Source: Phycisphaerae bacterium
GTDB taxonomy: Bacteria > Planctomycetota > Phycisphaerae > Phycisphaerales > SM1A02
Length of the DNA stretch: 35,008 nucleotides
NCBI GenBank assembly: GCA_030432455.1
Contig: JAUIHC010000001.1
Coordinates: forward strand, 1-35,008
Reading direction: 5' to 3'
Made by a program: the position numbers and the translations under genes. How positions within the stretch are numbered: the stretch's first letter is position 1; each line of letters starts with the position of its first letter. Below, piece after piece: positions 22,736 to 34,874 of the stretch. Under the pieces are notes generated by a model, which saw only the letters and a program-made list of their open reading frames with translations, ran no database searches and was not told the DNA's origin.

Positions 22736-23332
22736 ATGTTTGCCGAACGCCTCTACATCCCCTCGATCGACCCCCGCACAGTCTCTCCTGAAGCGCGGCT
22801 CCTCGTTGCGCTCCTCGACACTCTTCCCACCAACTCATCCTGCGTGCGGCTTGGGATCATGCATGCCGAGCGCATCCTCCGGGAGCCGCCGGTCAAATTG
22901 CTCCGGGAACTGGAGACCGCCGGCGTCCTGCGATTCCGTCGATCCACTGAAGAAGAGATCACCGTCTACGCGGAATCCCCCATCCGAGGAGGCCGCCGCG
23001 TGAACGGGATCGGCTACAACCTCGGCGAGTACGTCTACGAGCGCTTCGGCGTCGGCGACAAGGAAGGCCCGAAGGTGCCGGAGGCGGTAACTCGGATCGT
23101 CTCACGAACCGGGGAGGGCCTCTCGACCGAGTTCACGACTGAGTCGGGGAACGCCTTCGACGTGTACGGGCGGTGGTGCCGTGACCAGAACGGCAATCCG
23201 GTACCAACGCGCCTCCCCACCTATGGGCGCATCCGCAAGCTCACCGAGCGTGATGTGGCAACACACCCCGTCATCGTCAATGACATCGAATCGATCTTCC
23301 CGCGTCGGAAGCGGAGGCCCGCGAAGAAGTGA
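22736..23332 (+). CDS. hypothetical protein (possible winged-helix domain)
   Basis: The ATG at 22736 is preceded by GGGGGAG. The protein is 198 aa, contains ...LLRELETAGVLRFRR..., and has a basic C-terminus (RRKRRPAKK). It is coupled to the transposase by a GTGA overlap. Confidence 0.55.
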   Translation: MFAERLYIPSIDPRTVSPEARLLVALLDTLPTNSSCVRLGIMHAERILREPPVKLLRELETAGVLRFRRSTEEEITVYAESPIRGGRRVNGIGYNLGEYVYERFGVGDKEGPKVPEAVTRIVSRTGEGLSTEFTTESGNAFDVYGRWCRDQNGNPVPTRLPTYGRIRKLTERDVATHPVIVNDIESIFPRRKRRPAKK

Positions 23333-25572
23333 CGGCACTCCCGCGCCAACATGACAGCGACCCGGCCGCCTGGGTCCCGATCGCGCACGCCGCGCATGTC
23401 ATGGGCGTCGGTACCGCCCGGCTCCGTCAGCGCTGCCGCAATGAACTCGCCGGCAAGGGGCTCGCCCGCAAGTGCCGCGTGTCGAGCGGTCAGGAGTCCT
23501 GGCACGTTCACCCCTCGATCGATCGTCGGCTCGGATCAGGAACCCCGGACACAACACCCGCGGAACTGCTCGCGTCGATCCCCAAGTCGCAACGCGATGC
23601 GGCGGAGTGTCGGGCGCTGATGCTCCGCGACTTCCGGCGCTGGCGCGATCTTCGTTCGACGAACGTCCGCCGTGACTTCGATGCCTTCCGTGCGTCGATG
23701 TCCCAACGGTACGAGTCGCCGGTGCCCGCGCTCTCACGCTTCTACTCGTGGAACGAGATCGCGCCGTCGAGCGATGACTTCCCCGGATGCGTGCTCGCGC
23801 TGGTCGACACCCGCGGCGGTGCACAGTCCGGTCAGGTCGGCGGTGTATCAGCTCCGGCGTGGCAGCGCTTCGAGGCGCTGTATCTGACGCCTCAGCGATG
23901 GTCGATCGCCAAGTGCCACCGAACGCTCAAGGTCGAGGCGAAGCATCACGGCTGGAATTGGCCGGGGTCTGCACGCCAGGTCCAGAACCTTGTGCGCGAA
24001 CGCATCACGCCACAACGCGCGGTTATGGCCCGTGACGGCGTCGACGCATGGCGCCACAAGTTCCTGACTCCGCTCGAGCAGGATCCCGACGCATGGCTCG
24101 CCGGGCAGTGTTGGGAGGGCGACCACTCACGGCTCGACCTCTTCGTCCGTGTCTTCCGCGGGGGCAAGTGGGTCTCCGACCGTCCGTGGCTCACTGCGTG
24201 GAAGGACCGTCGGTCGCGCCGAGTGATGGGATGGGTCGTTGGCATGAATCCCAACTCCGACGCGATCCGCGGCGCCCTCATGCGGGCGCTTCGTGATGAG
24301 ACGGCCTCCGTGCCGGAGTACGTCTGGATCGATAACGGCAAGGACTTCGCGGCGGCGGAGTTCGGCGGCAAGACCAAGAAGCAACGCCGGCGTGCCCGCC
24401 GCGAAGACCGGGAGATGAACACTGTCGCGTGGGCCGGCCTCTTCGGCATGCTCGGCGTCGACGTCCACTTCGCCGAGGCGTACAACCACAACGGCAAAGC
24501 GAGGATCGAGCGGTCGTTCGGCACGCTCCACATGGACCATGACCGGGAGTATCCGAGTTGGTGCGGCTCGAAGCCCGGCGATCGCGACCGTGAGTCACTC
24601 GACGCCGTCCTCGCCGACGTGATGTCCCTCCCAACCGTCGATGACGTGCGCGAGTCGATCGACCGTTGGATCGAGTACTACAACCATCGCGCCGATCACA
24701 GCATCGACGCCCTCGCCGATCCGGAGACGGGCCGGAAGGTCTCGCCCGTCGAGTTCTACGCGGCGCAGATCCCCGCGAAGCGAACGCTTCCGGATCGTGG
24801 CGCTCTGGCGCTCCTCGAGCAGCGCTGGTCGCGGCCGCTCAAGGTGACGAAGCACGGCGTCTCGCTACGCATCGGCGGGCAGACCGTGAGCTTTGGTGAC
24901 GTTGCGAGCGAACTCGATCGACTTCGCGGCTCCGATGACACCGTGCTGGTCACCTACGACCCGGACGACACGACGCGCGTCCGTGTGTACGACATGGCGG
25001 GCGTGTTCCTGTGTGTCGCCGAGCAGAACATGAGACATGGCGGGCCAACGTATGACCCGGTCTCGGTCGAGGCCCGAAAGCGTGCCCTCGCCCGCCGGCG
25101 TGCGGCGCAGCGTGAGGTCAAGAAGTCGATCGACGTCGCCGCGCTGACCGATACCCCGGCGTCGCTGGCCGCTGATGAGCAGCGCCGGATCGAGATCGAA
25201 GAGACTCAGGCTCGGCTCTCTGAGATGGGCGCCGACGCACCGCCGCCGATCCGCTTGGTGCGGACAGCCGTCGACGGTCAATCGGACAAGGTCGACCAGG
25301 CCGAACGCATGGCGATGGCCGCGGGCGCCGAGCACTACGACGACGGGGAGGAATCAGTCATCGACGCGTTGGTCGAGGACTTCCGGCGCGAGGAGGAGCG
25401 CAACCGCGCGGCCCGCGACATGGCCGAGCCGGAGTGCATCACGTTCGCGATCGACGACGACGACGACCAGGACGACGACGAGGAGATCGACGTCGACGGG
25501 ATCACCACGCTCCTGATCGGGGCGGACGACGAATGCCAAGAGGACGGGGCAGCGTACCCGTGGGACGAATGA
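23329..25572 (+). CDS. MuA-like DDE transposase (rve integrase core)
   Basis: The DDE triad contexts are WEGDHSRLD, YVWIDNGKDF and HNGKARIERSFGTL. The protein has an N-terminal HTH-like region and an acidic C-terminal tail (DDDDDQDDDEEIDVDG). The exact start is uncertain: GTG at 23329, or the downstream Met of 'MGVGTARL'. Confidence 0.85.
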   Translation: MTALPRQHDSDPAAWVPIAHAAHVMGVGTARLRQRCRNELAGKGLARKCRVSSGQESWHVHPSIDRRLGSGTPDTTPAELLASIPKSQRDAAECRALMLRDFRRWRDLRSTNVRRDFDAFRASMSQRYESPVPALSRFYSWNEIAPSSDDFPGCVLALVDTRGGAQSGQVGGVSAPAWQRFEALYLTPQRWSIAKCHRTLKVEAKHHGWNWPGSARQVQNLVRERITPQRAVMARDGVDAWRHKFLTPLEQDPDAWLAGQCWEGDHSRLDLFVRVFRGGKWVSDRPWLTAWKDRRSRRVMGWVVGMNPNSDAIRGALMRALRDETASVPEYVWIDNGKDFAAAEFGGKTKKQRRRARREDREMNTVAWAGLFGMLGVDVHFAEAYNHNGKARIERSFGTLHMDHDREYPSWCGSKPGDRDRESLDAVLADVMSLPTVDDVRESIDRWIEYYNHRADHSIDALADPETGRKVSPVEFYAAQIPAKRTLPDRGALALLEQRWSRPLKVTKHGVSLRIGGQTVSFGDVASELDRLRGSDDTVLVTYDPDDTTRVRVYDMAGVFLCVAEQNMRHGGPTYDPVSVEARKRALARRRAAQREVKKSIDVAALTDTPASLAADEQRRIEIEETQARLSEMGADAPPPIRLVRTAVDGQSDKVDQAERMAMAAGAEHYDDGEESVIDALVEDFRREEERNRAARDMAEPECITFAIDDDDDQDDDEEIDVDGITTLLIGADDECQEDGAAYPWDE

Positions 25573-26675
25573 CCAAGCATCACGACAACCCACCATCGAG
25601 TGAAGGATTGCTCGATCAGTTGGCGCAGGAGGCGCGTGTGATCAATACAGCTGCGGCGGTGCTCCCCGAAGAGGGCGAACTGAACGGTGACCAGGTCCGG
25701 GAGGTCGCGGAGCGACTCGATGCGTACCTGAGTGCCAAGCGCTTGACGCCGTTCGTCGTCGGGCGGCAGACCGGGCGTGCCGTTTCCTCGATCGAGTCGT
25801 TCCTGAAGGGCGCCTACGGCGGCAATGTGAGCAAGCTCGCACGGCTGATCAACCGCTGGCTCGATCAGCACCAGGGCGGCGAGGAGAAGTTCAGCCACAC
25901 CTACACCTCGACCAAGGTCACCGATCGCATGCTCACGCTCATGAAGCTGGCGCAGCGCGAGCGGCAGATCGGTGTCATCACCGGTCCCTCCGGCATCGGC
26001 AAGTCGATGGTCTGCCAGGCGGCTGCTTCCGGTGAGATACCCGGCGCGACGCATGTGCATTGTCTGCAGGGCTCATCGACGGCGTTCCAGTTCGCGCAGC
26101 TGTGGGCCGCCGAGTTGCAGTTGAAGGCCCGCGGCGGACTCTTCCAGGTCCAGAGAGCCATCATCGAGCAGCTGCGAGGATCGGACCGGCTACAGATCAT
26201 CGACGAGGCGCAGTACCTCCACACGAAGGCCGCGAACGTCATCCGCGACGTGTGCAAGGTTGCCGGCGTCGGGGTGGCCCTGGTCGGGACCGTGGACATC
26301 GAACGGAACATCAACGACCGCACGCAGTTCTACGGCCAGTTCGAGCGGCTCATCGTCGCCCGCTACAACATCGTCGAGGAGCACGTGCAGAATGGCGGCC
26401 GCCCCCTCTACACCGTCGAGGAGATCGTCCGCTTCGCCGCGAGTCGCAAGCTCAAGCTCAGCGGCGATGCCGCCGAGTTCGCGACGCGCCTCGCATGTGT
26501 GCCCGGGTACGGCGGGCTTGGTCGCTTGGGCAACATCCTCTTCGTCGCCAGCAAGGTGGCGAAGACGGGCACCATCACCCTGAAGAACCTCAAAGCGGCG
26601 GTCAAGCACGGCCTTGGCGCTCAGCACGCCGAGCGCTGGAGCATCGAGGCCAGCCGTCTGAAGGCCACCGCGTAG
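25569..26675 (+). CDS. MuB-like AAA+ ATPase (transposition target-DNA activator)
   Basis: The ATG at 25569 forms an ATGA overlap with the transposase stop. It has Walker A GPSGIGKS, Walker B LQIIDEAQ and an N-terminal HTH-like region. Confidence 0.8.
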   Translation: MTKHHDNPPSSEGLLDQLAQEARVINTAAAVLPEEGELNGDQVREVAERLDAYLSAKRLTPFVVGRQTGRAVSSIESFLKGAYGGNVSKLARLINRWLDQHQGGEEKFSHTYTSTKVTDRMLTLMKLAQRERQIGVITGPSGIGKSMVCQAAASGEIPGATHVHCLQGSSTAFQFAQLWAAELQLKARGGLFQVQRAIIEQLRGSDRLQIIDEAQYLHTKAANVIRDVCKVAGVGVALVGTVDIERNINDRTQFYGQFERLIVARYNIVEEHVQNGGRPLYTVEEIVRFAASRKLKLSGDAAEFATRLACVPGYGGLGRLGNILFVASKVAKTGTITLKNLKAAVKHGLGAQHAERWSIEASRLKATA

Positions 26676-26684
26676 GAGAAAGCC

Positions 26685-27248
26685 ATGCCCTGGTCGAAGT
26701 CACAGAACATCATGCTTCAGAAGGCCGCGAAGGCCGCCGGCTGGAACAGCGAGCAGCGCTACATGGCGATGCGCTATGTCGGCTGCCGCGACGCCAAGGG
26801 CAAGGGGCGGCCGAGCGCAACCGGACCGTCGAACACTCAGGATCAGTTCGAACTCATCATGGCGCTGGCGTACCAGCACGCGTCCATGAACAAGGCCGGC
26901 CACGCTGTCCCCGCGCCGCGGAGCGGTACCTGGAGCGACGCGGCCGAAGCCATCGGCGCCCGCGTGCGCCGCAAGATCGAGGACGTGTGGATGGAGGCGT
27001 CGCAGCGCATCTCAGACGTGTTCCATCCGCGCGGCCTCGACGGCTTTGTGATCCGCCAGACGAAGAACGACCCCGCCGAGTTCTCGTTCGATGACTCGCC
27101 GCGATCGCTGGAGGAGTGCGACACCGCGCAGCTCTATCGGATCCTCGAGGGGCTCAAGGGATGGATCGGCCGCGAGATGCTCAGGCGCGGGCTGACGCCC
27201 TCGACGTTCGAGATCCCGGCACACGCCCGGCGTCAGGTCGGTGCATGA
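26685..27248 (+). CDS. GemA / Mu gp16-like protein (DUF1018-like)
   Basis: 187 aa with a TAGGAGAAAGCC SD. It sits after the B-like gene. The N-terminal pattern LQKAAKAAGWNSEQRYMAMRYVG...SNTQDQFELIMALA resembles the DUF1018 signature as I recall it. Confidence 0.45.
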   Translation: MPWSKSQNIMLQKAAKAAGWNSEQRYMAMRYVGCRDAKGKGRPSATGPSNTQDQFELIMALAYQHASMNKAGHAVPAPRSGTWSDAAEAIGARVRRKIEDVWMEASQRISDVFHPRGLDGFVIRQTKNDPAEFSFDDSPRSLEECDTAQLYRILEGLKGWIGREMLRRGLTPSTFEIPAHARRQVGA

Positions 27249-28066: not shown

Positions 28067-28244
28067 ATCGGCTCCCGGTCGCATGGATGCGAACCGATGA
28101 CGCAGGACGCACAACATCCCGACTTCGGGTCACACAGAAAGGTGGGCGCCGGGGCTGATCCCCCCGACGCCCGGACCGAGACCCACGTGCACGTTTCAGC
28201 CAAGCGTGGACCCCGGCAACCTCATCTTACAAGGAGAGGAACCA

Positions 28245-28430
28245 ATGGGTTCAGCAAGCTGCCCGCCGGAAAGGCGCGGGCGGGGTACTCCCCGTCCGCC
28301 CCGACCGGACGGGAATCGATATCGGGAGCAGTACGGCGTCATTGTCATCTGTTCGAACGAAGATCATCAGCGCGACGTCTACGAGCGGCTGCGCAACGAG
28401 GGGCACAAGGTCCGGGTGGTGACGACATGA
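28245..28430 (+). CDS. small protein (61 aa): basic Pro/Arg-rich N-terminus plus a beta-alpha-beta-like C-terminus
   Basis: The internal ATG at 28245 is preceded by a strong AAGGAGAGG SD. It is coupled to the ABC-GNAT gene by an ATGA overlap. The C-terminus is YGVIVICSNEDHQRDVYERLRNEGHKVRVVTT. Confidence 0.55.
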   Translation: MGSASCPPERRGRGTPRPPRPDGNRYREQYGVIVICSNEDHQRDVYERLRNEGHKVRVVTT

Positions 28431-29566
28431 GAGTCACCATCGAGCACAGGTGCCCGGACTTCACCAGCTACCGCGCTGCACGCGTCAAGAGCCTGTTCAA
28501 CGTTGACCGCGGGTGCGAGTTCGACCTGGACGTTGAACTGCCCATCGAAGACTTCGCCTGGAAGATCGGCGTCGTCGTCGGGCCGAGTGGGAGTGGCAAG
28601 ACCAGCATCGGGCAGCGCGTCCTCGGACGCCGCGCGTTCTACCGTTCCGGGCGCTGGCCGAAGTCCGAGCCGATCATCGATGCGATCCATCCCGACGGGT
28701 CGTTCGACGATGTCACCGCGGCACTGTCCGCCGTCGGGCTTGGCTCAGTTCCCACCTGGTTGCGCCCCTACCCGGTGCTGTCCAACGGGGAGCGCTTCAG
28801 AGCAGACCTCGCGCGGATCATCTGCGAGCGGCCGGGACGCGTCGTCATCGACGAGTTCACGAGCGTTGTCGATCGACAGATCGCACGCATCGGCGCGGGC
28901 GCATTCGCCAAGGCGTGGCGCCGTGGTGATGGGCGCTGCGTCCTGCTGAGTTGCCACCGCGACATCCTGTCATGGGTGCGGCCGGACTGGGTCTATGACA
29001 CCGGTACCGGCCGGTTCCAAAGGGGGTGGGTTCGGCGCCGTCCACGCATCCACCTCGACATTCACGAGACAGATTGGAGCTTCTGGCCGATGTTCGAGCC
29101 GCATCACTATCTGAAGCTCCCGCGCATGATCGGTGCGCACTGCTACGTCGGCTCCGTCCAGGGCGAGCCCGTGGCGCACGTTGCCGTCGGCTCGGCTCAT
29201 TGCGGGCACGGGATCGTGGAGGCCCGCGCGTGCCGCCTGGTCGTGATGCCGGAGTGGCAGGGCGCCGGTGTTGGAACGCGCTTCCTCAACGAGGTCTGCC
29301 GCCTGCAGCTCGCCGGCCGCGGCCGGCTCCGTGATCGCAAGGTCACGACGATGTTCCACACCTCGCATCCCGGCCTCGCCGCGGCGCTGAGGCGCGACCG
29401 TCGGTGGTCGCAGATCTCGTGCAAGCTCTACGGGGCGAGGAAAGCCGCGTCAGTCGCGTCCCTCCGGAAGTCGCGGGGTGACGGCCGGCGATCAGTCGGC
29501 ACAGGCTTCGGCGGCCACTTCCGGGCCGTCCAGGGCTTCCGCTACTACGGGGAGGCCGCGGCATGA
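28427..29566 (+). CDS. ABC-type ATPase fused to a GNAT-family acyltransferase domain
   Basis: The ATPase half has Walker A GPSGSGKT, an ABC-signature-like LSNGERFRADLA, Walker B/D-loop VVIDEFTSVVD and an H-loop LLSCHRD. The C-terminal half has the GNAT motif-A-like RLVVMPEWQGAGVGTRFLNEV, preceded by FEPHHYL. Confidence 0.7.
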   Translation: MRVTIEHRCPDFTSYRAARVKSLFNVDRGCEFDLDVELPIEDFAWKIGVVVGPSGSGKTSIGQRVLGRRAFYRSGRWPKSEPIIDAIHPDGSFDDVTAALSAVGLGSVPTWLRPYPVLSNGERFRADLARIICERPGRVVIDEFTSVVDRQIARIGAGAFAKAWRRGDGRCVLLSCHRDILSWVRPDWVYDTGTGRFQRGWVRRRPRIHLDIHETDWSFWPMFEPHHYLKLPRMIGAHCYVGSVQGEPVAHVAVGSAHCGHGIVEARACRLVVMPEWQGAGVGTRFLNEVCRLQLAGRGRLRDRKVTTMFHTSHPGLAAALRRDRRWSQISCKLYGARKAASVASLRKSRGDGRRSVGTGFGGHFRAVQGFRYYGEAAA

Positions 29567-30081
29567 GCGATCGGCTGTTCCACTGCTACACGAGCCTCAT
29601 GGACCGCTCTCGCTTCATCACGCGGTGTCGGGCGGTCGCTGTGCGGCACGGGTTCCGGGAGACCGGTGATCCCGCGCGCGCACACTTCGCGATCGCCCCG
29701 CTGCTGACCCGCAAGCTCTCGGATGACGAACTCGCGGCGTCGCGCCTCGGCGTCCTCATCTTCCATCCCTCCGCGCTCCCCTACCGCCGCGGCATGGACG
29801 CCATCAAGTGGGCGCTCGATGCCGGCGAGCCGGTGAGCGGCGTGACGTGGTTTTGGGGCGGCCGTGGACTCGACACGGGTCCGATCTGCGCCCAGGAGCC
29901 CGTCGTGCTCAAGGCCGGCGAGACGCCGCGCGAGGCGTACGAGCGTCGGTTCATCCCGGCGGGCCTCACCGCCCTCGACCAGGCCATCTCTGAGATCTCG
30001 CGCGGCCGAGTGCGCCGCGTTCACCAGGACGAGTCGCTGGCGACATACGACCAGCGCTTCCCCACTCGAAAGGAGTCGTGA
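29563..30081 (+). CDS. minimal formyltransferase-like protein (Fmt/PurN catalytic core)
   Basis: LGVLIFHPSALPYRRGMDAIKWAL..GEPVSGVTWF....GLDTGPI....Q.ESLATY lines up with the Fmt core (INVHxSLLPRWRGAAPIQ..., GVT, LDTG, Q.E...TY). The conserved His and Asp are present but the Asn is replaced by Phe. The protein is 172 aa, with no C-terminal tRNA-binding domain and a shortened N-terminal subdomain. Confidence 0.7.
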   Translation: MSDRLFHCYTSLMDRSRFITRCRAVAVRHGFRETGDPARAHFAIAPLLTRKLSDDELAASRLGVLIFHPSALPYRRGMDAIKWALDAGEPVSGVTWFWGGRGLDTGPICAQEPVVLKAGETPREAYERRFIPAGLTALDQAISEISRGRVRRVHQDESLATYDQRFPTRKES

Positions 30082-30084
30082 ACC

Positions 30085-30708
30085 ATGAACCTGTTCAGAC
30101 CTCTGGCCCACGGAGACGTACCCGAGAAGATCCCGCTGCTGCTGGCGCTGCTTCTGGCGGCGGTGTTGTTTGCCGGGTGCCAGGTGGCCCACACCGCCGC
30201 GTTCGATGAGGGCCGCTTCGACCTCGAGGGACCGTCGTCCATCAAGAACCAGGCGGACTACGCGACGCCGGACGGCCACGTGTCGAGGCTCAACACGGAC
30301 GGCTACCCGTACCACATCGACTACGGGGCCGATTACGGCCTTGTGCTCCAGGGCAACGGGCCGTCCCGCTTCGTGGGCGCGACGTTGCCGGGCGGGGTGA
30401 CCTTCACGATTGCCAGTGAGACCGACTACGGGTGGGACAGCGCTACCGGCGGGTTCGATCCCGAGAGCGGCAACTTCACGTTCCGCATCGACGGCTTCAA
30501 GTCCGACGCGTCTTCGGTCGCGCAACAGGTCGCGGCGGCGCTCGCGATCCGTGTGCCCGGCTGGCAGACGATGGCGGAGACGGAGCGTGACGCGCTCGTC
30601 AAGAGCACCGAGACGATCGTGGCCGGAGGGGTTGCGATCGCCGAAGCGGCGGGGAGCGTCGCCGAGACGTTCATGAGCGGCGGCGCGGCCGCCATTGTTC
30701 CGGACTGA
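30085..30708 (+). CDS. lipoprotein
   Basis: Signal peptide with a lipobox: ...LLLALLLAAVLFAG|CQVAH. 207 aa. Confidence 0.65.
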   Translation: MNLFRPLAHGDVPEKIPLLLALLLAAVLFAGCQVAHTAAFDEGRFDLEGPSSIKNQADYATPDGHVSRLNTDGYPYHIDYGADYGLVLQGNGPSRFVGATLPGGVTFTIASETDYGWDSATGGFDPESGNFTFRIDGFKSDASSVAQQVAAALAIRVPGWQTMAETERDALVKSTETIVAGGVAIAEAAGSVAETFMSGGAAAIVPD

Positions 30709-30826
30709 CCCCACCACGAACGATCCCACGCTCGCCTCCCGGGCGGCCCCGGATCGGACGCGCGGGTGATCCAACGGTCACCCTCGCAATTCAGCAACCA
30801 CGACCTCCTTCCCGGAGACAGCCGCA

Positions 30827-31648
30827 ATGCTCCACCTTGGCGAATCATCAATGACCCTCATCTGCCCGTTGGCCGCGCAGGGTCATCGGAGCGCGACGAA
30901 CGCCCTCGGATACAACGCCCTCGGACTTGCGGCGATGCAGTATGGGATGTCGGTGTTCGAGCAACTGGTGAAGGAGGCGGCCGACGCCGGCTTCAGGTGC
31001 CTCATGCTCCGATCACCGTGTGGCGTCACCGCATACGACGGCCGCCGCCCGAAGCGTCACCTCCTGGACATGGCCGGCGAGATCGTCGACCCGATGGGCT
31101 ACCCGGTCTTCGCCAGGTGGTCACCCGTCGCGATGGAGACGTTCCCCATTCTCCGCGAGATGGTCCACGGTGCCGGCCTCGTGCTCGGGCTGTGGGTCGG
31201 CCTGGCCACTGCACGCGACGACGGCAAAGACCGGTCCTGGATCAGCAAGCGGTCGATCGATGCGCACGTGGCCGACGTGCACGGCTACGCATGGATGGGG
31301 TACGACGTCATCGGCGGCGATGCCATCAACTGGGCCGTGGGCAAGGGCGGCAAGCCTCGATACCTGGTCGAGGAGTATCGGGACCGCTGCAGGCGCTCCA
31401 CCGCGTTGTTCCTGGGCGAGGGCCACGATGTCTTCGTCGCGGGCCTGGGCAACTCGGACAAGCCGACCCTCGAGGAGCGGATGCTCGAGGCGGACGACCC
31501 CGACCAGTCGATGTTCATCCTGCACGGCAACTACAGAGAGCTGGTCCGCGCTGACCTTCCGAAGCACTGGGCGCTCACGATCAACCACGCCGAACGAGTC
31601 GGGCTCCTCAGAGGCGGCGTCGTGCAAAGGACGGTGCCCCGTGTGTGA
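30827..31648 (+). CDS. hypothetical protein (possible TIM-barrel-like hydrolase; very tentative)
   Basis: 273 aa with GGAGA 8 nt upstream. It has alternating beta-strand-like hydrophobic blocks (FRCLMLRSPCG, GLVLGLWVG, GYDVIGGDA). I recognised no firm motif. Confidence 0.5.
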   Translation: MLHLGESSMTLICPLAAQGHRSATNALGYNALGLAAMQYGMSVFEQLVKEAADAGFRCLMLRSPCGVTAYDGRRPKRHLLDMAGEIVDPMGYPVFARWSPVAMETFPILREMVHGAGLVLGLWVGLATARDDGKDRSWISKRSIDAHVADVHGYAWMGYDVIGGDAINWAVGKGGKPRYLVEEYRDRCRRSTALFLGEGHDVFVAGLGNSDKPTLEERMLEADDPDQSMFILHGNYRELVRADLPKHWALTINHAERVGLLRGGVVQRTVPRV

Positions 31649-31817
31649 GCCCCGCGTCGTTCATCACGTCGAGTGCCGCGCCTACTGCGCCGATTGCGAC
31701 TGGTCATCGAGCAGCCGCTCCGAGGTGCCGGCACGTCAGCATCACCGGGAGACCGGCCACACGGTCGACATCGAGCGCATCGAGCACGTGGCGCTCATGG
31801 GAGAGGGAGAGCGGTGA
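31641..31817 (+). CDS. small Cys/His zinc-finger-like protein (58 aa)
   Basis: Its frame overlaps the end of the previous gene. Sequence: ...CEPRVVHHVECRAYCADCDWSSSSRSEVPARQHHRETGHTVDIE... The GTG start at 31641 is a guess, because there is no in-frame ATG. Confidence 0.4.
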   Translation: MCEPRVVHHVECRAYCADCDWSSSSRSEVPARQHHRETGHTVDIERIEHVALMGEGER

Positions 31818-32038
31818 GCAAGCGAAAGCAGGGCCAACCCGTCACATCGATGACGCGAGACGAACTCGTCGCGCTGCTCGGTGTCATGGCCGCGAGCCCG
31901 GAGCTTCCATCGAACGCGACGGCCAAGCGGCGTCTCCGCGCGGCCCTCGGCATCCCCGAATGGGCGAAGCCCGACGCCTGGACTAAGGCGATCGGCCGCG
32001 CCCTTGACCTCGAATCCGGAAAGGACACGACCTCATGA
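31814..32038 (+). CDS. hypothetical small protein (74 aa)
   Basis: The GTG start forms a GTGA overlap with the previous stop and is preceded by GGGAGAGGGAGAG. An alternative ATG lies at 31850. Confidence 0.4.
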   Translation: MSKRKQGQPVTSMTRDELVALLGVMAASPELPSNATAKRRLRAALGIPEWAKPDAWTKAIGRALDLESGKDTTS

Positions 32039-32535
32039 CCACGATCGCGAAGCGACCGATTCCACCGACCGGCATCCTTCAGGAGTGGGTGGCGCGGCTC
32101 GGACTTCGACACCAGGGGGTCCTGGTGTCTTCGATCCGGGGGTGTGACACCGCTCCGAAGAACGATCCAAGCAAGCGGCTCACGCGAGTGCTGCGCGGGC
32201 TGATCCTCAACACACACTGCGAGAACCCCCACGACGCCCGCAGCTTCATCGAACCGATGGCAGCCGACGAAGCGGTGACCCAAGTGCCGCTCGTCATCGC
32301 CGCTTTCTGCGACGTCGTCGATCAATGCCCGCACCACTTTGTGATGCACGCGGTTCACGCCATCGAGGTGATCGCGTACAAGCATCCGTCCCCGGTCATC
32401 CGCGACATTTGGACCTGGGCGTACTTCGACCTTGCACACCGGCTCCACCTCTCACCCGAGACGGAGGAGCAACTCGACTGCCGCCTGAACGCGGATGAGA
32501 GTGAGTTCGCCGAAGCCCAAGGGGGGATCGGATGA
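32035..32535 (+). CDS. His/Cys-rich hypothetical protein (166 aa), coupled to the BCS1-like ATPase
   Basis: It has ATGA overlaps on both sides. Its motifs are LRHQGVLVSSIRGCD, HCENPHD and CPHHFVMHAVHAIEVIAYKHP. Confidence 0.6.
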   Translation: MTTIAKRPIPPTGILQEWVARLGLRHQGVLVSSIRGCDTAPKNDPSKRLTRVLRGLILNTHCENPHDARSFIEPMAADEAVTQVPLVIAAFCDVVDQCPHHFVMHAVHAIEVIAYKHPSPVIRDIWTWAYFDLAHRLHLSPETEEQLDCRLNADESEFAEAQGGIG

Positions 32536-33869
32536 TGCTGAGCGACGTCTTCTCCATTGCGATGGAGTTTCTTCGCGAGAACGAGTTCGCATCCGGCGGC
32601 TTGGTGATCGGGGCCGCCACCGGCGTGCTCTACTCGATTCGATCACTTCCCGGGAAGCTCTGGGCCCTGCTGCGACGGCGAATCATGTTCGAAGTCGAGG
32701 TGCTCGATACCGACGAGGCGTACAACTGGTTGATGCTCTGGGTGGCAACCAAGACAAGCCGGCGCTGGAACCGTCGAGTAACGGCCGTCACATCCGGCGC
32801 GGGCGCACTCTTCCGTGCGCAGGGGTCCATGTCGTATCAGGGGGAGGACGACAGGCGGGCAATTCGGCTCATTCCCGCGCCCGGAACACACCTCGTGATG
32901 CACCGTGGCTCGCCGGTTCTCGCGCTTCGAAGCCGGGACGATGATTCGAAGAGCATGATGTCCGATCGGCTTCTCCGCCCCGAGAGCCTGACGCTGGTCA
33001 TATTCCGAGGTGGGCGGGGGGCGGCGCTTGAGATCATTGAGGAGGCCCGTTGTCTCGCTCAGCCGAATCAGGACATCAACATCCGGGTGATGGCGTTCGA
33101 GTGGGGATGCTGGTCGACAACCCACCGACTTCGCCGACGTCCGGCAGACTCCGTTGTTCTGGCGAACCATGCCCAGGACGTGATCGTCGAGGACCTCCGC
33201 CGATTCATCGGCTCGGAAGACTGGTATGCGGAGCGGTGCATCCCTTGGCGCCGCGGCTACCTCCTCCACGGTCCGCCCGGGAACGGGAAGACGAGTCTCA
33301 TCCAGGCGATGGCCGCTGAGGCCGGACAGGACATTGGGATCCTCCGCCTTGCAGACAAGGATATGACGGACGCACGTCTCGCCGAAGCGGTGGCCACGAG
33401 CCGCGACAACGGATTGATCCTGGTGATCGAGGATGTCGACGCCGCCTTCGGCCCTGATCGCGAGAAGGGGGAGAAGGGAAGCCAGCTCACATTCAGCGGC
33501 CTCATCAATGCGATCGACGGCCTCAACTCGCCAGGCGGCCAGATCGTCGTGATGACAACGAACCACCCCGACCGACTCGACGAGGCTCTGTTCCGTCCGG
33601 GGCGCGTCGATGTGACGCTTGAGATCGGCAACGCCACGCCTGACCAGGCTCGGCGGATCGCCCTCCGCTTCGGCCTCACTGCCGATGAAGCGAGCGACTT
33701 TGCGACGATGGTTCGTGAAGGTGAGCCCCGGTCGATGGCGTCGCTCCAGGCCGAACTCCTGGCCATGTCATCGAAGCCGGGACGCCGACCGCGGAAGAGT
33801 CCCGGACCTGAGTTGATTGAGAGCCTTCGTGTGCTCGCTGACGATCTCGGCCGAGGGGGTGACGGATGA
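32532..33869 (+). CDS. BCS1-type AAA+ ATPase (N-terminal TM + BCS1_N-like domain + AAA domain)
   Basis: It has an N-terminal TM helix (GGLVIGAATGVLYSI) and then the segments EVEVLDTDEAYNWLMLWVATK, RLIPAPGTHLVMHRGSPVLALRSRD and PWRRGYLLHGPPGNGKTSLIQAMA (Walker A). These are followed by LILVIEDVDAAF (Walker B), LTFSGLINAIDGL and MTTNHPDRLDEALFRPGRVD. These blocks run collinear with the yeast Bcs1 sequence as I remember it. Confidence 0.8.
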   Translation: MMLSDVFSIAMEFLRENEFASGGLVIGAATGVLYSIRSLPGKLWALLRRRIMFEVEVLDTDEAYNWLMLWVATKTSRRWNRRVTAVTSGAGALFRAQGSMSYQGEDDRRAIRLIPAPGTHLVMHRGSPVLALRSRDDDSKSMMSDRLLRPESLTLVIFRGGRGAALEIIEEARCLAQPNQDINIRVMAFEWGCWSTTHRLRRRPADSVVLANHAQDVIVEDLRRFIGSEDWYAERCIPWRRGYLLHGPPGNGKTSLIQAMAAEAGQDIGILRLADKDMTDARLAEAVATSRDNGLILVIEDVDAAFGPDREKGEKGSQLTFSGLINAIDGLNSPGGQIVVMTTNHPDRLDEALFRPGRVDVTLEIGNATPDQARRIALRFGLTADEASDFATMVREGEPRSMASLQAELLAMSSKPGRRPRKSPGPELIESLRVLADDLGRGGDG

Positions 33870-34108
33870 ACCTCGTCCCGCTGACCAGGTGGCAGAGGTT
33901 CGTCCAATGGTGGACGCGTTACGCGCCGATCCCCTGGCGACGCTGCATGTTCTGTCGCAGGTGGTTTTTCAATCGATCGTTCTGGCGACTGTCGAGCATG
34001 CGATGGGGCATCCCTGAGCACTGCTCACGCGCGTGCGCGAATGCGCTGTCCGAAGCGGCCGAGGTTGAGAGGGTCCTCCCGCCCTCGGTTCGGGGAGGTG
34101 ACGGATGA
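33866..34108 (+). CDS. small Trp/Arg-rich protein with a CxxC...CSRAC zinc-ribbon-like motif
   Basis: 80 aa, with ATGA overlaps on both sides. Its Cys residues are arranged as C-x2-C-x22-C-x3-C. Confidence 0.55.
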   Translation: MNLVPLTRWQRFVQWWTRYAPIPWRRCMFCRRWFFNRSFWRLSSMRWGIPEHCSRACANALSEAAEVERVLPPSVRGGDG

Positions 34109-34434
34109 AGGCCCTCAGGATCAAGCTGGGCGGCGAGGATCGCGTCGTATTCAGATGCCCCGCATGCGAAAGCTGCCACAACATCGTCCCGGGTCGTTGG
34201 CGGTGGAACGGCGACGTCGACTCGCCGACCTTCTCGCCGAGCGTCAGGGTCACATGGGGGAACACCAAGTCCGCGAGCTGCTGTCACTTCTTCGTGACCA
34301 ACGGCCGCGTGAAGTTCTGCGCGGACTCGACGCACGCCCTCGCCGGGCAGGAGGTCGATCTGCCCGACCTGACGAGTGATGAGGTCGCATTCTGGAGTGA
34401 GGGGCGGCTGAGGCCGCATGGGGGTGGCGCATGA
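34105..34434 (+). CDS. Cys-rich small protein (resembles the DUF6527-type phage family)
   Basis: 109 aa: FRCPACESCHNIVPGRWRWNGDVDSPTFSPSVRV...SCCHFFVTNGRVKFCADSTHALAGQEV. The pattern CPxC..H......W.wNGd...PtfsPS...CH.f...G...f..DS.H matches my recollection of that family. Confidence 0.55.
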   Translation: MKALRIKLGGEDRVVFRCPACESCHNIVPGRWRWNGDVDSPTFSPSVRVTWGNTKSASCCHFFVTNGRVKFCADSTHALAGQEVDLPDLTSDEVAFWSEGRLRPHGGGA

Positions 34435-34874
34435 AGGGGCGTGAACGCGATTCGATCGACCCGATCGAGGAAGGCATGCAGTTGGCGCGTCGAACCTGGC
34501 GGCGGTGTCCGTCATGCGTCCCGCCGTCCATCGTTCGATGGCTCCGTGATGGCGTGACGATGCGCGCGTCGCACGCGCGGAAGCTCTCGGAGTGGGTGCG
34601 GCACCAGGATGAGGACCTCGCCAATCGGATCCTCGCGGTGGCATATCCGTCGATGCGCCGCCGGGTCCCGTATCGGGTCTGTGTACTCCTCGCCGTCCCC
34701 CTTGTTCTGGTGATTCCATCTTCGCCGCAACGGCTACCGGCTTCCACCTTCGGTCGCGCGTTGATCGCGGCTGGCGCGTGTGAGACGCCGGCTCCGTTCC
34801 TGTATTGGATTTCGCATGAGCCGCTCGCGATCGCGGGCGTTCCTGTTTTGCCGGGCGCGTTCGCAACGTCGTAA
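34431..34874 (+). CDS. hypothetical protein (HTH-like N-terminus plus one hydrophobic helix), last early-operon gene
   Basis: 147 aa with an ATGA overlap onto the previous gene. It has the HTH-like segment SIVRWLRDGVTMRASHARKLSEWV and a TM-like segment (VCVLLAVPLVLVI). Confidence 0.45.
   Translation: MKGRERDSIDPIEEGMQLARRTWRRCPSCVPPSIVRWLRDGVTMRASHARKLSEWVRHQDEDLANRILAVAYPSMRRRVPYRVCVLLAVPLVLVIPSSPQRLPASTFGRALIAAGACETPAPFLYWISHEPLAIAGVPVLPGAFATS

What the first reader, a model, noticed from the sequence alone, without database searches (positions are those of the whole stretch)
31641..34874. Full-length mitochondrial-type BCS1 AAA+ homologue in a phage early operon, chained to small Cys/His-rich proteins
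Seen in the sequence: the 445-aa ORF (32532..33869) is not a generic AAA+ protein. It has an N-terminal TM helix and a BCS1-specific N-domain (EVEVLDTDEAYNWLMLWVATK; RLIPAPGTHLVMHRGSPVLALRSRD). Its AAA module reads PWRRGYLLHGPPGNGKTS / LVIEDVDAAF / TFSGLINAIDG / TTNHPDRLDEALFRPGRVD. These blocks run collinear with yeast Bcs1 as I remember it (YRRGYLLYGPPGSGKTS / LLEDIDAAF / TFSGLLNALDG / TTNHPEKLD..RPGRID). It is joined by ATGA/GTGA overlaps into one unit with five small proteins. Four of them are conspicuously Cys/His-rich: 31641 (CxxC/HH), 32035 (HCENPHD, CPHHFVMHAVH), 33866 (CxxC...CSRAC) and 34105 (CPACESC...CCH...C..H). Established knowledge: Bcs1 is a membrane-anchored ring translocase that moves the already folded Rieske Fe-S protein across the mitochondrial inner membrane, and bacteria normally use Tat for that job. 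Inference: this may be a phage-borne device that translocates or remodels folded proteins, with the coupled metal-binding-looking proteins as cargo or adaptors. Possible roles are host takeover, superinfection exclusion or envelope remodelling. I know of no described function for a BCS1 homologue in a transposable phage.
Basis: partly seen in the sequence, partly recalled or inferred. Interest (0 to 1): 0.8.

Follow-up and report, generated by a model that had tools for sequence, protein, structure and literature searches.

The report
Bcs1-type ATPase in Mu-like phage
A transposable (Mu-like) phage carries a genuine, full-length relative of the mitochondrial Bcs1 membrane ATPase, probably picked up from a planctomycete-type host, but the small cysteine/histidine-rich genes beside it are unrelated phage accessory genes, not its conserved partners.

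Summary
ORF 32532-33869 (445 aa) is a full-length Bcs1-family AAA ATPase: Pfam BCS1_N E 7.5e-24 over the whole profile, AAA E 1.2e-20. It aligns collinearly with yeast Bcs1, membrane helix included (E 6e-59, 35% identity), and its predicted fold matches Bcs1 structures first. The six small flanking ORFs are real coding frames.

- Bcs1 homologues in phages are already described (jumbo phages, PHROG 7485), and the family is a common stand-alone gene in Planctomycetota and Deinococcales. The window protein groups with the planctomycete sequences (40-43% identity).
- None of the neighbouring small genes occurs near any of 93 other Bcs1-type genes.
- The 166-aa gene belongs to a widespread phage family seen in five other phage contexts without Bcs1.
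- The 109-aa gene is a DUF6527 (BubE-type zinc-finger Ser/His peptidase) domain protein, found in 282 phage records without visible linkage to Bcs1.
- 4-bp start/stop overlaps are the usual gene junction throughout this genome.

Best reading: a host-derived, membrane-anchored chamber ATPase carried as one accessory gene at the far end of the rightward (early-side) gene string of a Mu-like phage. Its client is unknown. This is a new member of a known kind, of moderate interest.

The parts
32532..33869 (+). 445-aa Bcs1-family AAA ATPase (the core of the finding)
   Evidence: Pfam BCS1_N E 7.5e-24 and AAA E 1.2e-20. PHROG 7485 E 1.3e-67. Yeast and mouse Bcs1 E 6e-59 and 1e-56. The top 17 Foldseek PDB hits are all Bcs1, E down to 2e-35, TM up to 0.76.
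32583..32642 (+). Predicted N-terminal membrane helix (aa 18-37), followed by a basic stretch (K42, R47-R50); N-out/C-in by the positive-inside rule
   Evidence: Aligns to the yeast Bcs1 TM segment. AF2 predicts helix 18-37. Kyte-Doolittle 19-residue mean is 1.29, against 1.24 for the yeast TM (hand calculation). N17, G23 and G30 are conserved in 21 homologues.
32619..33155 (+). Bcs1-specific N-domain (aa 30-208)
   Evidence: Pfam PF08740, profile positions 2-182 of 182. Beta-rich fold in the AF2 model.
33258..33629 (+). AAA module (aa 243-366): Walker A GPPGNGKT, 'ED'-type Walker B VIEDVD (E300, D301), sensor-1 N344, Arg fingers R355 and R358
   Evidence: Pfam PF00004. All these residues are invariant in alignment A1. 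The ED Walker B is a shared Bcs1/YjoB signature (PMC9565160).
31641..31817 (+). 58-aa small Cys/His protein (GTG start); CxxC plus His-rich tail; probable small zinc finger
   Evidence: GC3 frame support and an SD-like motif. Weak PHROG 1477 hit, E 4e-4. No Pfam or NCBIfam hit.
31814..32038 (+). 74-aa small protein, no Cys/His motif, no detectable family
   Evidence: GC3 frame support. No family hits.
32035..32535 (+). 166-aa member of a conserved phage protein family of unknown function. All-alpha, with an invariant His/Glu cluster (H101, H105, H108, H138, E142). Independent of Bcs1.
   Evidence: 150 homologues at 45-62% identity. Invariant residues in A2. AF2 pLDDT 93.6. No PDB fold match and one unnamed viral match. 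Five other phage contexts lack Bcs1.
33866..34108 (+). 80-aa Trp/Arg-rich protein with CxxC-x22-CxxxC (a zinc-ribbon pattern of the TRASH / zf-FCS / YacG type, judged by eye); orphan
   Evidence: GC3 is highest in this frame, 0.85 and 0.75. SD-like GGGGGTGACGG lies upstream. No Pfam, PHROG, NCBIfam or phage-database hit.
34105..34434 (+). 109-aa DUF6527 (BubE-type) domain protein: zinc-finger Ser/His peptidase family, stand-alone phage version
   Evidence: Pfam PF20137 E 1.6e-11. PHROG 3362 E 6e-27. 4501 representative clusters. Invariant C18, C21, S46, C60, H61, D74, H77. BubE biochemistry in bioRxiv 10.1101/2024.11.21.623953.
34431..34874 (+). 147-aa orphan with an N-terminal CxxC, a basic region and one clear hydrophobic helix (aa 79-97); last gene before the contig end
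   Evidence: Kyte-Doolittle 1.99 at aa 79-97. No family or phage-database hits.
34822..34839 (+). Terminator-like hairpin with a T-rich tail at the end of the gene string
   Evidence: Consensus scan only.
23329..27248 (+). Context: MuA-type transposase (23329-25572), MuB/TniB-like ATPase (about 25569-26675) and GemA (26685-27248), upstream on the same strand
   Evidence: Pfam hits. ATGA junction at 25569.

Best explanation
The 445-aa gene encodes a true Bcs1-family AAA ATPase. It has an N-terminal membrane anchor predicted to place the bulk of the protein in the cytoplasm, the Bcs1-specific middle domain, and a catalytically intact AAA module with the family's unusual 'ED' Walker B.

By homology (inferred, not shown), it should assemble into a ring on the cytoplasmic face of the host inner membrane. 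The ring would enclose a chamber that takes up an already folded client protein. ATP-driven changes would then push the client into or across the membrane (as in Bcs1) or hold and release it (as in YjoB).

The gene most likely came from the host lineage. Its nearest relatives are stand-alone chromosomal genes of Planctomycetota.

In this Mu-like phage it is one of a string of accessory genes, downstream of the conserved transposition genes at the far end of the rightward gene string. The flanking Cys/His-rich genes are separate accessory genes that share only the transcription unit: small zinc-ribbon proteins, a widespread phage all-alpha His-cluster protein, and a stand-alone DUF6527 peptidase-family protein. 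The client of the ATPase is not identified and is not encoded by a conserved neighbour. It may be a host protein or a phage protein.
For: **Family membership**
-.

**Host-type origin**
- The best hits are Isosphaeraceae and Gemmataceae proteins at 40-43% identity.
- In a neighbour-joining tree the window protein groups with planctomycete sequences. Cultured-phage versions are only 23-28% identical.

**Solo gene**
- No neighbour family is shared by more than 9 of 87 loci.

**Neighbours independent**
- 0 of 93 other Bcs1 loci carry a DUF6527-like or 166-aa-family ORF. tblastn with all neighbours was also negative.
- The 166-aa family occurs in five Bcs1-free phage contexts.
- DUF6527 occurs in 282 phage records, including RcapMu, 9NA and Vi1-like phages.

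**Accessory position**
- In the only more distant Mu-like relative with downstream sequence (L176), MuA, MuB and GemA are conserved. Nothing from 28097-34874 is.
- In cultured phages, Bcs1-type genes also sit among variable small hypothetical genes.

**Overlaps are generic**
-.

**Chamber mechanism in relatives**
- PMC12219900 and PMC11143374 (titles and abstracts) and PMC9565160.
Against: - No close relative of this phage exists in the collections searched. The best MuA relatives are 29-32% identical and the best Bcs1 relative 43%. Synteny could therefore not be tested in truly related elements, and a lineage-specific partnership cannot be excluded.
- Ring formation, topology and any client are inferred only.
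- The Pfam Bcs1-type lid domain (PF25426), recorded for nearly all listed full-length homologues, is not recorded for this protein. The C-terminal part is therefore divergent.
- The host is not identified directly.
- The neighbour-joining tree is rough and the window sequence sits on a long branch.
Confidence: 0.7

Rival explanations
1. One reading: a dedicated phage device in which the Bcs1-type ring translocates or remodels the adjacent metal-binding small proteins (cargo or adaptors), for host takeover, exclusion or envelope remodelling.
For: - The genes are tightly packed on one strand with 4-bp overlaps and SD-like motifs.
- Four neighbours do have Zn-type Cys/His patterns.
- Mitochondrial Bcs1 carries a metal-cluster protein.
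- B. subtilis YjoB pulled down small Fe-S-related proteins and the product of a nearby gene, YjoA (PMC9565160).
Against: - No neighbour family co-occurs with Bcs1 in 93 other loci.
- The 166-aa and DUF6527 families are widespread without Bcs1.
- Bcs1 homologues are solo genes elsewhere.
- The overlaps are the genome-wide default.
- None of the small proteins resembles a Rieske-type client with an N-terminal anchor and a folded C-terminal domain.
Confidence: 0.1
2. A defence, superinfection-exclusion or anti-defence module: the membrane AAA ATPase, possibly together with the DUF6527 peptidase-family protein, acts against competing phages or against host immunity. One example would be removal of ubiquitin-like tags added by Bil/Bub-type systems.
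For: - The genes lie in the variable accessory end of a temperate transposable phage, where such genes commonly sit (general knowledge).
- There are weak PADLOC and NCBIfam hits to the anti-phage ATPase IetA/IteA.
- BubE-type DUF6527 proteins cleave Ubl conjugates.
- An anti-CRISPR is annotated near the Bcs1-type gene of phage RXM.
Against: - The IetA/IteA hits cover only the generic AAA core (aa 222-389), far below the curated cut-offs.
- No ATPase-peptidase pairing recurs elsewhere.
- No known defence architecture matches.
Confidence: 0.12
3. A virion-assembly role, as proposed for jumbo-phage Bcs1 orthologues: membrane-proximal assembly, or loading of folded proteins into the head.
For: Proposed in PMC7824862. 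PHROG 7485 shows that the family recurs in phages.
Against: - The gene lies on the strand and side opposite to all structural genes, which are on the minus strand at 143-21633. It follows the transposition genes on its own strand.
- It is closer to cellular planctomycete proteins than to the phage clade.
- In cultured phages the gene sits among small early-type genes, not in structural modules.
Confidence: 0.06

Closest known systems
Mitochondrial Bcs1 / BCS1L (yeast 6sh3, mouse 6uko/6uks): heptameric AAA translocase of the folded Rieske protein
   Same: - Collinear over TM helix, Bcs1-specific domain and AAA module: 35% identity, E 6e-59.
- Same Pfam domains.
- ED-type Walker B.
- Predicted fold matches Bcs1 first, TM up to 0.76.
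- Predicted topology is equivalent, with the AAA side in the matrix/cytoplasm.
   Different: - Encoded by a bacterial virus, with no mitochondrial targeting context.
- The lid region is divergent (no PF25426 hit) and there is a basic, disordered C-terminal tail.
- Client unknown; no Rieske gene nearby.
- Oligomeric state untested.
Stand-alone bacterial Bcs1 homologues of Planctomycetota and Deinococcales (annotated 'chaperone BCS1', 'AAA family ATPase', 'putative ATPase YjoB'); uncharacterised
   Same: - Nearest relatives at 40-43% identity, with the same length and architecture.
- Grouped with them in the tree.
- Also solo genes.
   Different: - The window copy is phage-borne and on a long branch.
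- It has EDVDAAF (as in mitochondria) where the bacterial consensus is EDVDCAF.
- It lacks a detectable PF25426 lid.
Phage Bcs1 orthologues (PHROG 7485): jumbo Caulobacter and Brevundimonas phages, CcrColossus gp235, Tenacibaculum pT24, Dinoroseobacter R26L, Citromicrobium RXM. Noted in Iyer et al. 2021 (PMC7824862).
   Same: - Same domain architecture: PHROG E 1.3e-67, and tblastn covers 80-92% of the protein.
- Embedded among small hypothetical genes.
   Different: - Only 23-29% identical and in a separate clade.
- Those phages are large or jumbo lytic types. This one is a 35-kb Mu-like transposable phage.
Bacillus subtilis YjoB (7w42): soluble hexameric chamber chaperone
   Same: - Bcs1-like N-domain fold plus an AAA module with ED Walker B. 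Foldseek E 7.5e-19.
- Offers a non-translocating 'holdase chamber' mechanism.
   Different: - 18-19% identity.
- YjoB has no membrane helix, is restricted to Bacillales, and gives no BCS1_N sequence match.
BubE (DUF6527) of Bub/6E ubiquitination-like operons; relevant to the 109-aa neighbour only
   Same: - Pfam DUF6527 hit.
- Conserved Cys cluster plus Ser and His, which fits the C4 zinc finger and Ser/His dyad described for BubE.
   Different: - No E1, E2 or Ubl genes beside it.
- CxxC spacing instead of CxCxC.
- An extra invariant D74-x2-H77 motif.
- Belongs to a very large stand-alone family (4501 representative clusters; PHROG 3362).

Membership tests
Bcs1 family (BCS1_N + AAA) | Bcs1-specific N-domain (Pfam PF08740) between the anchor and the AAA module | tested here: met
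   E 7.5e-24, 85.1 bits against a cut-off of 28.1; profile positions 2-182 of 182, aa 30-208.
Bcs1 family (BCS1_N + AAA) | Classical-clade AAA module with Walker A, 'ED' Walker B, sensor-1 Asn and Arg fingers | tested here: met
   PF00004 E 1.2e-20. GPPGNGKT, VIEDVD, TTN and RPGR are all invariant in A1. The ED signature is described in PMC9565160.
Bcs1 family (BCS1_N + AAA) | Single N-terminal transmembrane anchor | tested here: met
   Prediction only. aa 18-37 align to the yeast TM segment. AF2 predicts a helix there. Hydrophobicity is 1.29, similar to the yeast TM (and hand calculation). A basic flank follows. Membrane insertion itself was not tested.
Bcs1 family (BCS1_N + AAA) | Full-length collinear similarity, in sequence and fold, to solved Bcs1 | tested here: met
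   phmmer E 6.1e-59 (yeast) and 1.2e-56 (mouse). The top 17 Foldseek hits are all Bcs1.
Bcs1 family (BCS1_N + AAA) | Bcs1-type lid (Pfam PF25426 AAA_lid_BCS1) | tested here: inconclusive
   Not recorded for the window protein, although nearly all listed full-length homologues have it. It is also absent from the Pfam scan. The region still aligns and is predicted helical with pLDDT about 90.
Bcs1 family (BCS1_N + AAA) | Heptameric ring with a substrate chamber; translocation of a folded client | not testable with these tools
   Needs multimer modelling, cryo-EM and biochemistry.
   0 of 93 other Bcs1 loci carry a DUF6527-like or 166-aa-family ORF. tblastn with all neighbours was negative. No conserved neighbour of bacterial Bcs1 exists. 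Caveat: no close relative of this phage is available.
DUF6527 / BubE peptidase family (109-aa ORF) | DUF6527 domain with a Cys zinc site and a Ser/His pair | tested here: met
   PF20137 E 1.6e-11. Invariant C18, C21, S46, C60 and H61 in 32 homologues. The residue mapping onto BubE S92, C99 and H102 is by inference.
Bub (6E) ubiquitination-like operon | Adjacent E1, E2 and Ubl genes | tested here: not met
   The flanking genes have no Pfam, PHROG or NCBIfam hit to any E1/E2/Ubl family.
Mu-like transposable phage | MuA-type DDE transposase with Mu-specific domains, MuB-like ATPase, GemA, and tailed-phage structural genes | tested here: met
   HTH_Tnp_Mu_2, DDE_2 and Mu-transpos_C; AAA_22/TniB; GemA; SU10 major capsid protein; terminase. 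Terminal repeats and ends were not identified.
Known anti-phage systems (PADLOC; IetAS/IteA) | Full-length match to a defence-system protein model, plus its partner | tested here: not met
   Only AAA-core hits to IetA, TRIP13 and IteA. The NCBIfam IteA hit scores 27 bits against a cut-off of 510. No partner protease of the IetS type is present.

The most novel reading that the evidence does not exclude
The phage Bcs1-type ring is a Tat-independent exporter of folded proteins across a bacterial inner membrane. In this phage it would move one of its own folded metalloproteins to the periplasm or membrane. Candidates are the DUF6527 peptidase-family protein, the 166-aa His-cluster protein, or the anchored 147-aa protein. 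That would be a bacterial/viral counterpart of the mitochondrial Rieske pathway. It would also point to bacteria or their phages as the source of eukaryotic Bcs1.
Probability: 0.07. Interest if true: 0.85.

Novelty: new member of a known kind. Interest (0 to 1): 0.35.

Why it matters
No bacterial or phage Bcs1 homologue has a known client, although the family turns out to be abundant: more than 4000 hits, and it is common in Planctomycetota and Deinococcales. A small, genetically tractable type of phage that carries one would be a convenient handle for asking what a Bcs1-type chamber ATPase does outside mitochondria. It would also bear on where the mitochondrial enzyme came from. As it stands, the finding adds one more phage lineage to an already noted distribution and does not reveal a new multi-gene system.

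Tried and rejected
- **Single-protein scans of viral contigs.** Queries with the Bcs1 ORF, the DUF6527 ORF and the 489-aa ORF found nothing close. The phage has no near relative in IMG/VR and no megablast match in GenBank phages.
- **Concatenated query.** I joined the five orphan small proteins into one query for the last protein search. It returned nothing, not even the window's own proteins. The hack failed and says nothing about those proteins.
- **tblastn of the 273-, 147- and 80-aa ORFs against phages.** No match.
- **MuA-based search for related transposable phages.** Only two distant relatives turned up, at 29-32% identity. This is too far to test fine synteny.
- **Terminal inverted repeats, Mu-type ends, circular overlap.** None found.
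- **PADLOC defence models.** Only generic AAA similarity. A defence-system assignment was rejected.
- **IetA-ATPase plus protease analogy** (Bcs1 with the DUF6527 protein). Rejected because the pairing never recurs.
- **Alternative ORF 33817-34017 in place of the 80-aa ORF.** Rejected because GC3 favours the 80-aa frame, 0.77 against 0.67.
- **Fold search for the 166-aa protein.** No solved analogue. Its function stays unknown.

Full report
**What is there.** The + strand from 30827 to 34874 carries a tight string of ORFs: 273 aa (30827-31648), 58 aa (31641-31817, GTG start), 74 aa (31814-32038, GTG start), 166 aa (32035-32535), 445 aa (32532-33869), 80 aa (33866-34108), 109 aa (34105-34434) and 147 aa (34431-34874). 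Third-position GC follows each called frame, and every start has a G-rich Shine-Dalgarno-like motif 5-10 nt upstream, so all of them look like real genes. The stated range holds six small ORFs, not five.

**The 445-aa protein is a true Bcs1-family member.**
- Pfam gives BCS1_N (PF08740) at E 7.5e-24, covering profile positions 2-182 of 182 (aa 30-208). It gives AAA (PF00004) at E 1.2e-20.
- phmmer against all PDB chains puts yeast Bcs1 (6sh3, E 6.1e-59, query 18-406 to chain 51-429) and mouse Bcs1 (6uko, E 1.2e-56) well ahead of every other AAA protein; the next is Afg2 at 1.5e-30.
- The alignment begins inside the yeast transmembrane segment, so the N-terminal helix is homologous too.
- Identity to yeast Bcs1 is 35% over 386 residues.
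- An AlphaFold2 model built on 21 homologues has mean pLDDT 79.9 and a helix at aa 18-37. Its 17 best Foldseek matches in the PDB are all Bcs1 entries, with E down to 2e-35 and TM-score up to 0.76 for ATP-state structures.
- Walker A (GPPGNGKT), the family-typical 'ED' Walker B (VIEDVD), sensor-1 (TTN) and the arginine fingers (RPGR) are intact and invariant among homologues. The ED signature is described for Bcs1 and YjoB in PMC9565160.
- The anchor is only moderately hydrophobic, with a Kyte-Doolittle mean of 1.29. The experimentally established yeast anchor gives about 1.24 by my hand calculation.
- The acidic N-terminus and the basic stretch after the helix predict an N-out/C-in topology. 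That places the ATPase in the cytoplasm, the equivalent of the mitochondrial matrix (inference).
- One divergent point: the Bcs1-type lid profile PF25426 is recorded for nearly all listed full-length homologues but not for this protein. The region still aligns and is predicted helical.

**Context.** The window is a Mu-like transposable phage.
- A MuA-type transposase lies at 23329-25572 (HTH_Tnp_Mu_2, DDE_2, Mu-transpos_C). A MuB/TniB-like ATPase and GemA follow on the + strand.
- The SU10-type capsid protein, minor capsid protein, terminase and tail genes are on the minus strand to the left.
- Promoter-like sites diverge from about 21.0-21.7 kb. A terminator-like hairpin closes the string at 34822-34839 (consensus matches only).
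- The Bcs1 gene therefore lies at the far end of the rightward gene string that starts with the transposition genes. 'Early operon' is plausible but unproven.

**How common is this?**
- The protein search returned more than 4000 relatives at E <= 1e-10. The best are 40-43% identical and come largely from Isosphaeraceae, Gemmataceae, Aquisphaera, Paludisphaera and Pirellula.
- A scan of one genome per species confirmed 515 of 599 candidate stretches. The best 80 lie in Planctomycetota, Deinococcales and a few Proteobacteria and Leptospiraceae.
- In GenBank phages, 28 records hold a full-length relative at 25-29% identity. They include CcrColossus gp235 ('AAA+ ATPase and BCS1 domain protein') and Tenacibaculum phage pT24 ('mitochondrial chaperone BCS1').
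- PHROG 7485 matches at E 1.3e-67.
- Iyer et al. 2021 (PMC7824862) already reported Bcs1 orthologues in jumbo phages and suggested they translocate folded proteins during membrane-proximal assembly.
- A rough neighbour-joining tree groups the window protein, on a long branch, with Gemmataceae-type sequences. It sits apart from the cultured-phage clade. Yeast Bcs1 falls among the bacterial sequences.
- I read this as capture of a host-lineage gene by the phage (inference).

- tblastn with every neighbour found nothing real against 87 loci that hold a full-length Bcs1-type gene with 5-6 kb flanks.
- Profile HMMs of the DUF6527-like and 166-aa families were searched against six-frame ORFs of all loci. 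They found those families only in the window and, for the 166-aa family, in its own separately fetched loci. None lies in the 93 other loci with a strong Bcs1 match.
- Clustering all ORFs within 3 kb of bacterial Bcs1 genes gave no neighbour family present in more than 9 of 87 loci. Those few reflect synteny among close genomes. So the family is a solo gene.
- The 166-aa protein has 150 homologues at 45-62% identity. Five independent phage-like contexts for it (L004, L005, L006-008, L009, L010-011) have no Bcs1.
- The 109-aa protein has homologues in 282 phage records, including RcapMu, 9NA and Vi1-like phages, and in 4501 representative clusters. None of the listed phage records is among the listed Bcs1-carrying phages.
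- In two related viral contigs (L013, L014) and three cultured phages, the Bcs1-type gene also sits among small hypothetical genes, but different ones each time.
- In the one distant Mu-like relative with downstream sequence (L176), MuA, MuB and GemA are conserved and nothing from 28097-34874 is.
- ATGA/GTGA overlaps join about 14 other gene pairs across the genome, including structural genes. They are the default junction here.
- Caveat: no close relative of this phage exists in the collections. A partnership private to this lineage cannot be excluded.

**What the neighbours are.**
- *109 aa.* A DUF6527 domain protein (PF20137, E 1.6e-11; PHROG 3362, E 6e-27). DUF6527 is BubE, recently shown to be a zinc-finger Ser/His peptidase that removes ubiquitin-like conjugates in Bub operons (bioRxiv 10.1101/2024.11.21.623953). 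In 32 homologues C18, C21, S46, C60, H61, D74 and H77 are invariant. The zinc site and a Ser/His pair therefore seem retained, although no E1, E2 or Ubl genes are nearby.
- *166 aa.* This protein belongs to a family with no Pfam or PHROG model. It has invariant H101, H105, H108, H138 and E142. Its all-alpha model is very confident (pLDDT 93.6) and has no solved structural analogue.
- *80 aa.* Has CxxC-x22-CxxxC, a TRASH / zf-FCS / YacG-like zinc-ribbon spacing (by eye only).
- *58 aa.* Has CxxC plus histidines and a weak PHROG 1477 hit.
- *147 aa.* Has one clear hydrophobic helix.

Small zinc-stabilised proteins are ordinary in phage accessory regions (general knowledge). Their Cys/His richness needs no link to Bcs1.

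**Mechanism.**
- *Shown:* family membership, intact catalytic motifs, predicted anchor, solo-gene behaviour of the family, independence of the neighbours.
- *Inferred:* ring assembly at the inner membrane, and a chamber that handles a folded client. ATP would drive either translocation, as in Bcs1 (PMC12219900, PMC11143374), or hold-and-release, as in the soluble relative YjoB (PMC9565160).
- *Unknown:* the client. It could be a host protein, with the phage copy replacing or boosting the host's own Bcs1 homologue during infection. It could equally be a phage membrane or periplasmic protein.
- *Rivals:* the dedicated-cargo model, a defence or anti-defence role, and a virion-assembly role. These are rated in the rival list.

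**Verdict.** The 'device with Cys/His cargo' reading is not supported. Phage Bcs1 homologues are already on record, so this is a new member of a known kind, in a new type of phage. Interest is moderate (0.35). It rests mainly on the fact that nobody knows what bacterial or phage Bcs1 proteins do.

Noticed in passing
window 32035-32535 (+): The 166-aa ORF belongs to a conserved, unnamed phage protein family: 150 homologues at 45-62% identity, with no Pfam, PHROG or NCBIfam model. It has invariant H101, H105, H108, H138 and E142 and a very confident all-alpha AF2 model (pLDDT 93.6). That model has no structural match in the PDB (best E 0.9) and only one unnamed viral match. It may be an uncharacterised metalloprotein fold.
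   Followed up: partly
window 34105-34434 (+): Stand-alone DUF6527 (BubE-type peptidase family) proteins form a very large family: 4501 representative clusters and 282 phage records, including RcapMu, 9NA and Vi1-like phages. They have an extra invariant D-x2-H motif beyond the Pfam domain. A phage-borne deconjugase that counters bacterial ubiquitin-like defence would be worth testing.
   Followed up: partly
window 28097-30081 (+): A 489-aa protein combines an ABC-type ATPase domain with a GNAT acetyltransferase domain (PHROG 11143, E 7e-145, function unknown). A 172-aa formyltransferase-like protein (Formyl_trans_N, E 6.5e-15) follows with a 4-bp overlap. This may be a nucleic-acid or small-molecule modification module.
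   Followed up: partly
window 30085-30708 (+): The 207-aa protein has a lipoprotein-type signal peptide (…LLAAVLFAGC; Kyte-Doolittle 2.45) and no family hit. It may be an exclusion or envelope lipoprotein.
   Followed up: no
window 1-35008: The genome organisation is unusual for a Mu-like phage. The transposase sits mid-contig, with structural genes on the opposite strand to its left and divergent promoter-like sites at about 21.0-21.7 kb. No terminal inverted repeats or circular overlap were found at the contig ends.
   Followed up: partly
L013 5188-8095 and L014 4450-7979: Two related lower-GC viral contigs carry a Bcs1-type gene (31-37% identity) between a PD-(D/E)XK-like 330-aa gene and a DNA methyltransferase. 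In L013 a Cys-rich 267-aa ORF lies directly upstream, and an ORF with a signal-peptide-like N-terminus overlaps the Bcs1 stop codon. The neighbours differ again.
   Followed up: no
tree; loci L092-L171: Bcs1 homologues are abundant as solo chromosomal genes in Planctomycetota and Deinococcales. In a rough neighbour-joining tree yeast Bcs1 falls among these bacterial sequences. The prokaryotic origin and function of this family appear to be unstudied in the literature searched.
   Followed up: partly
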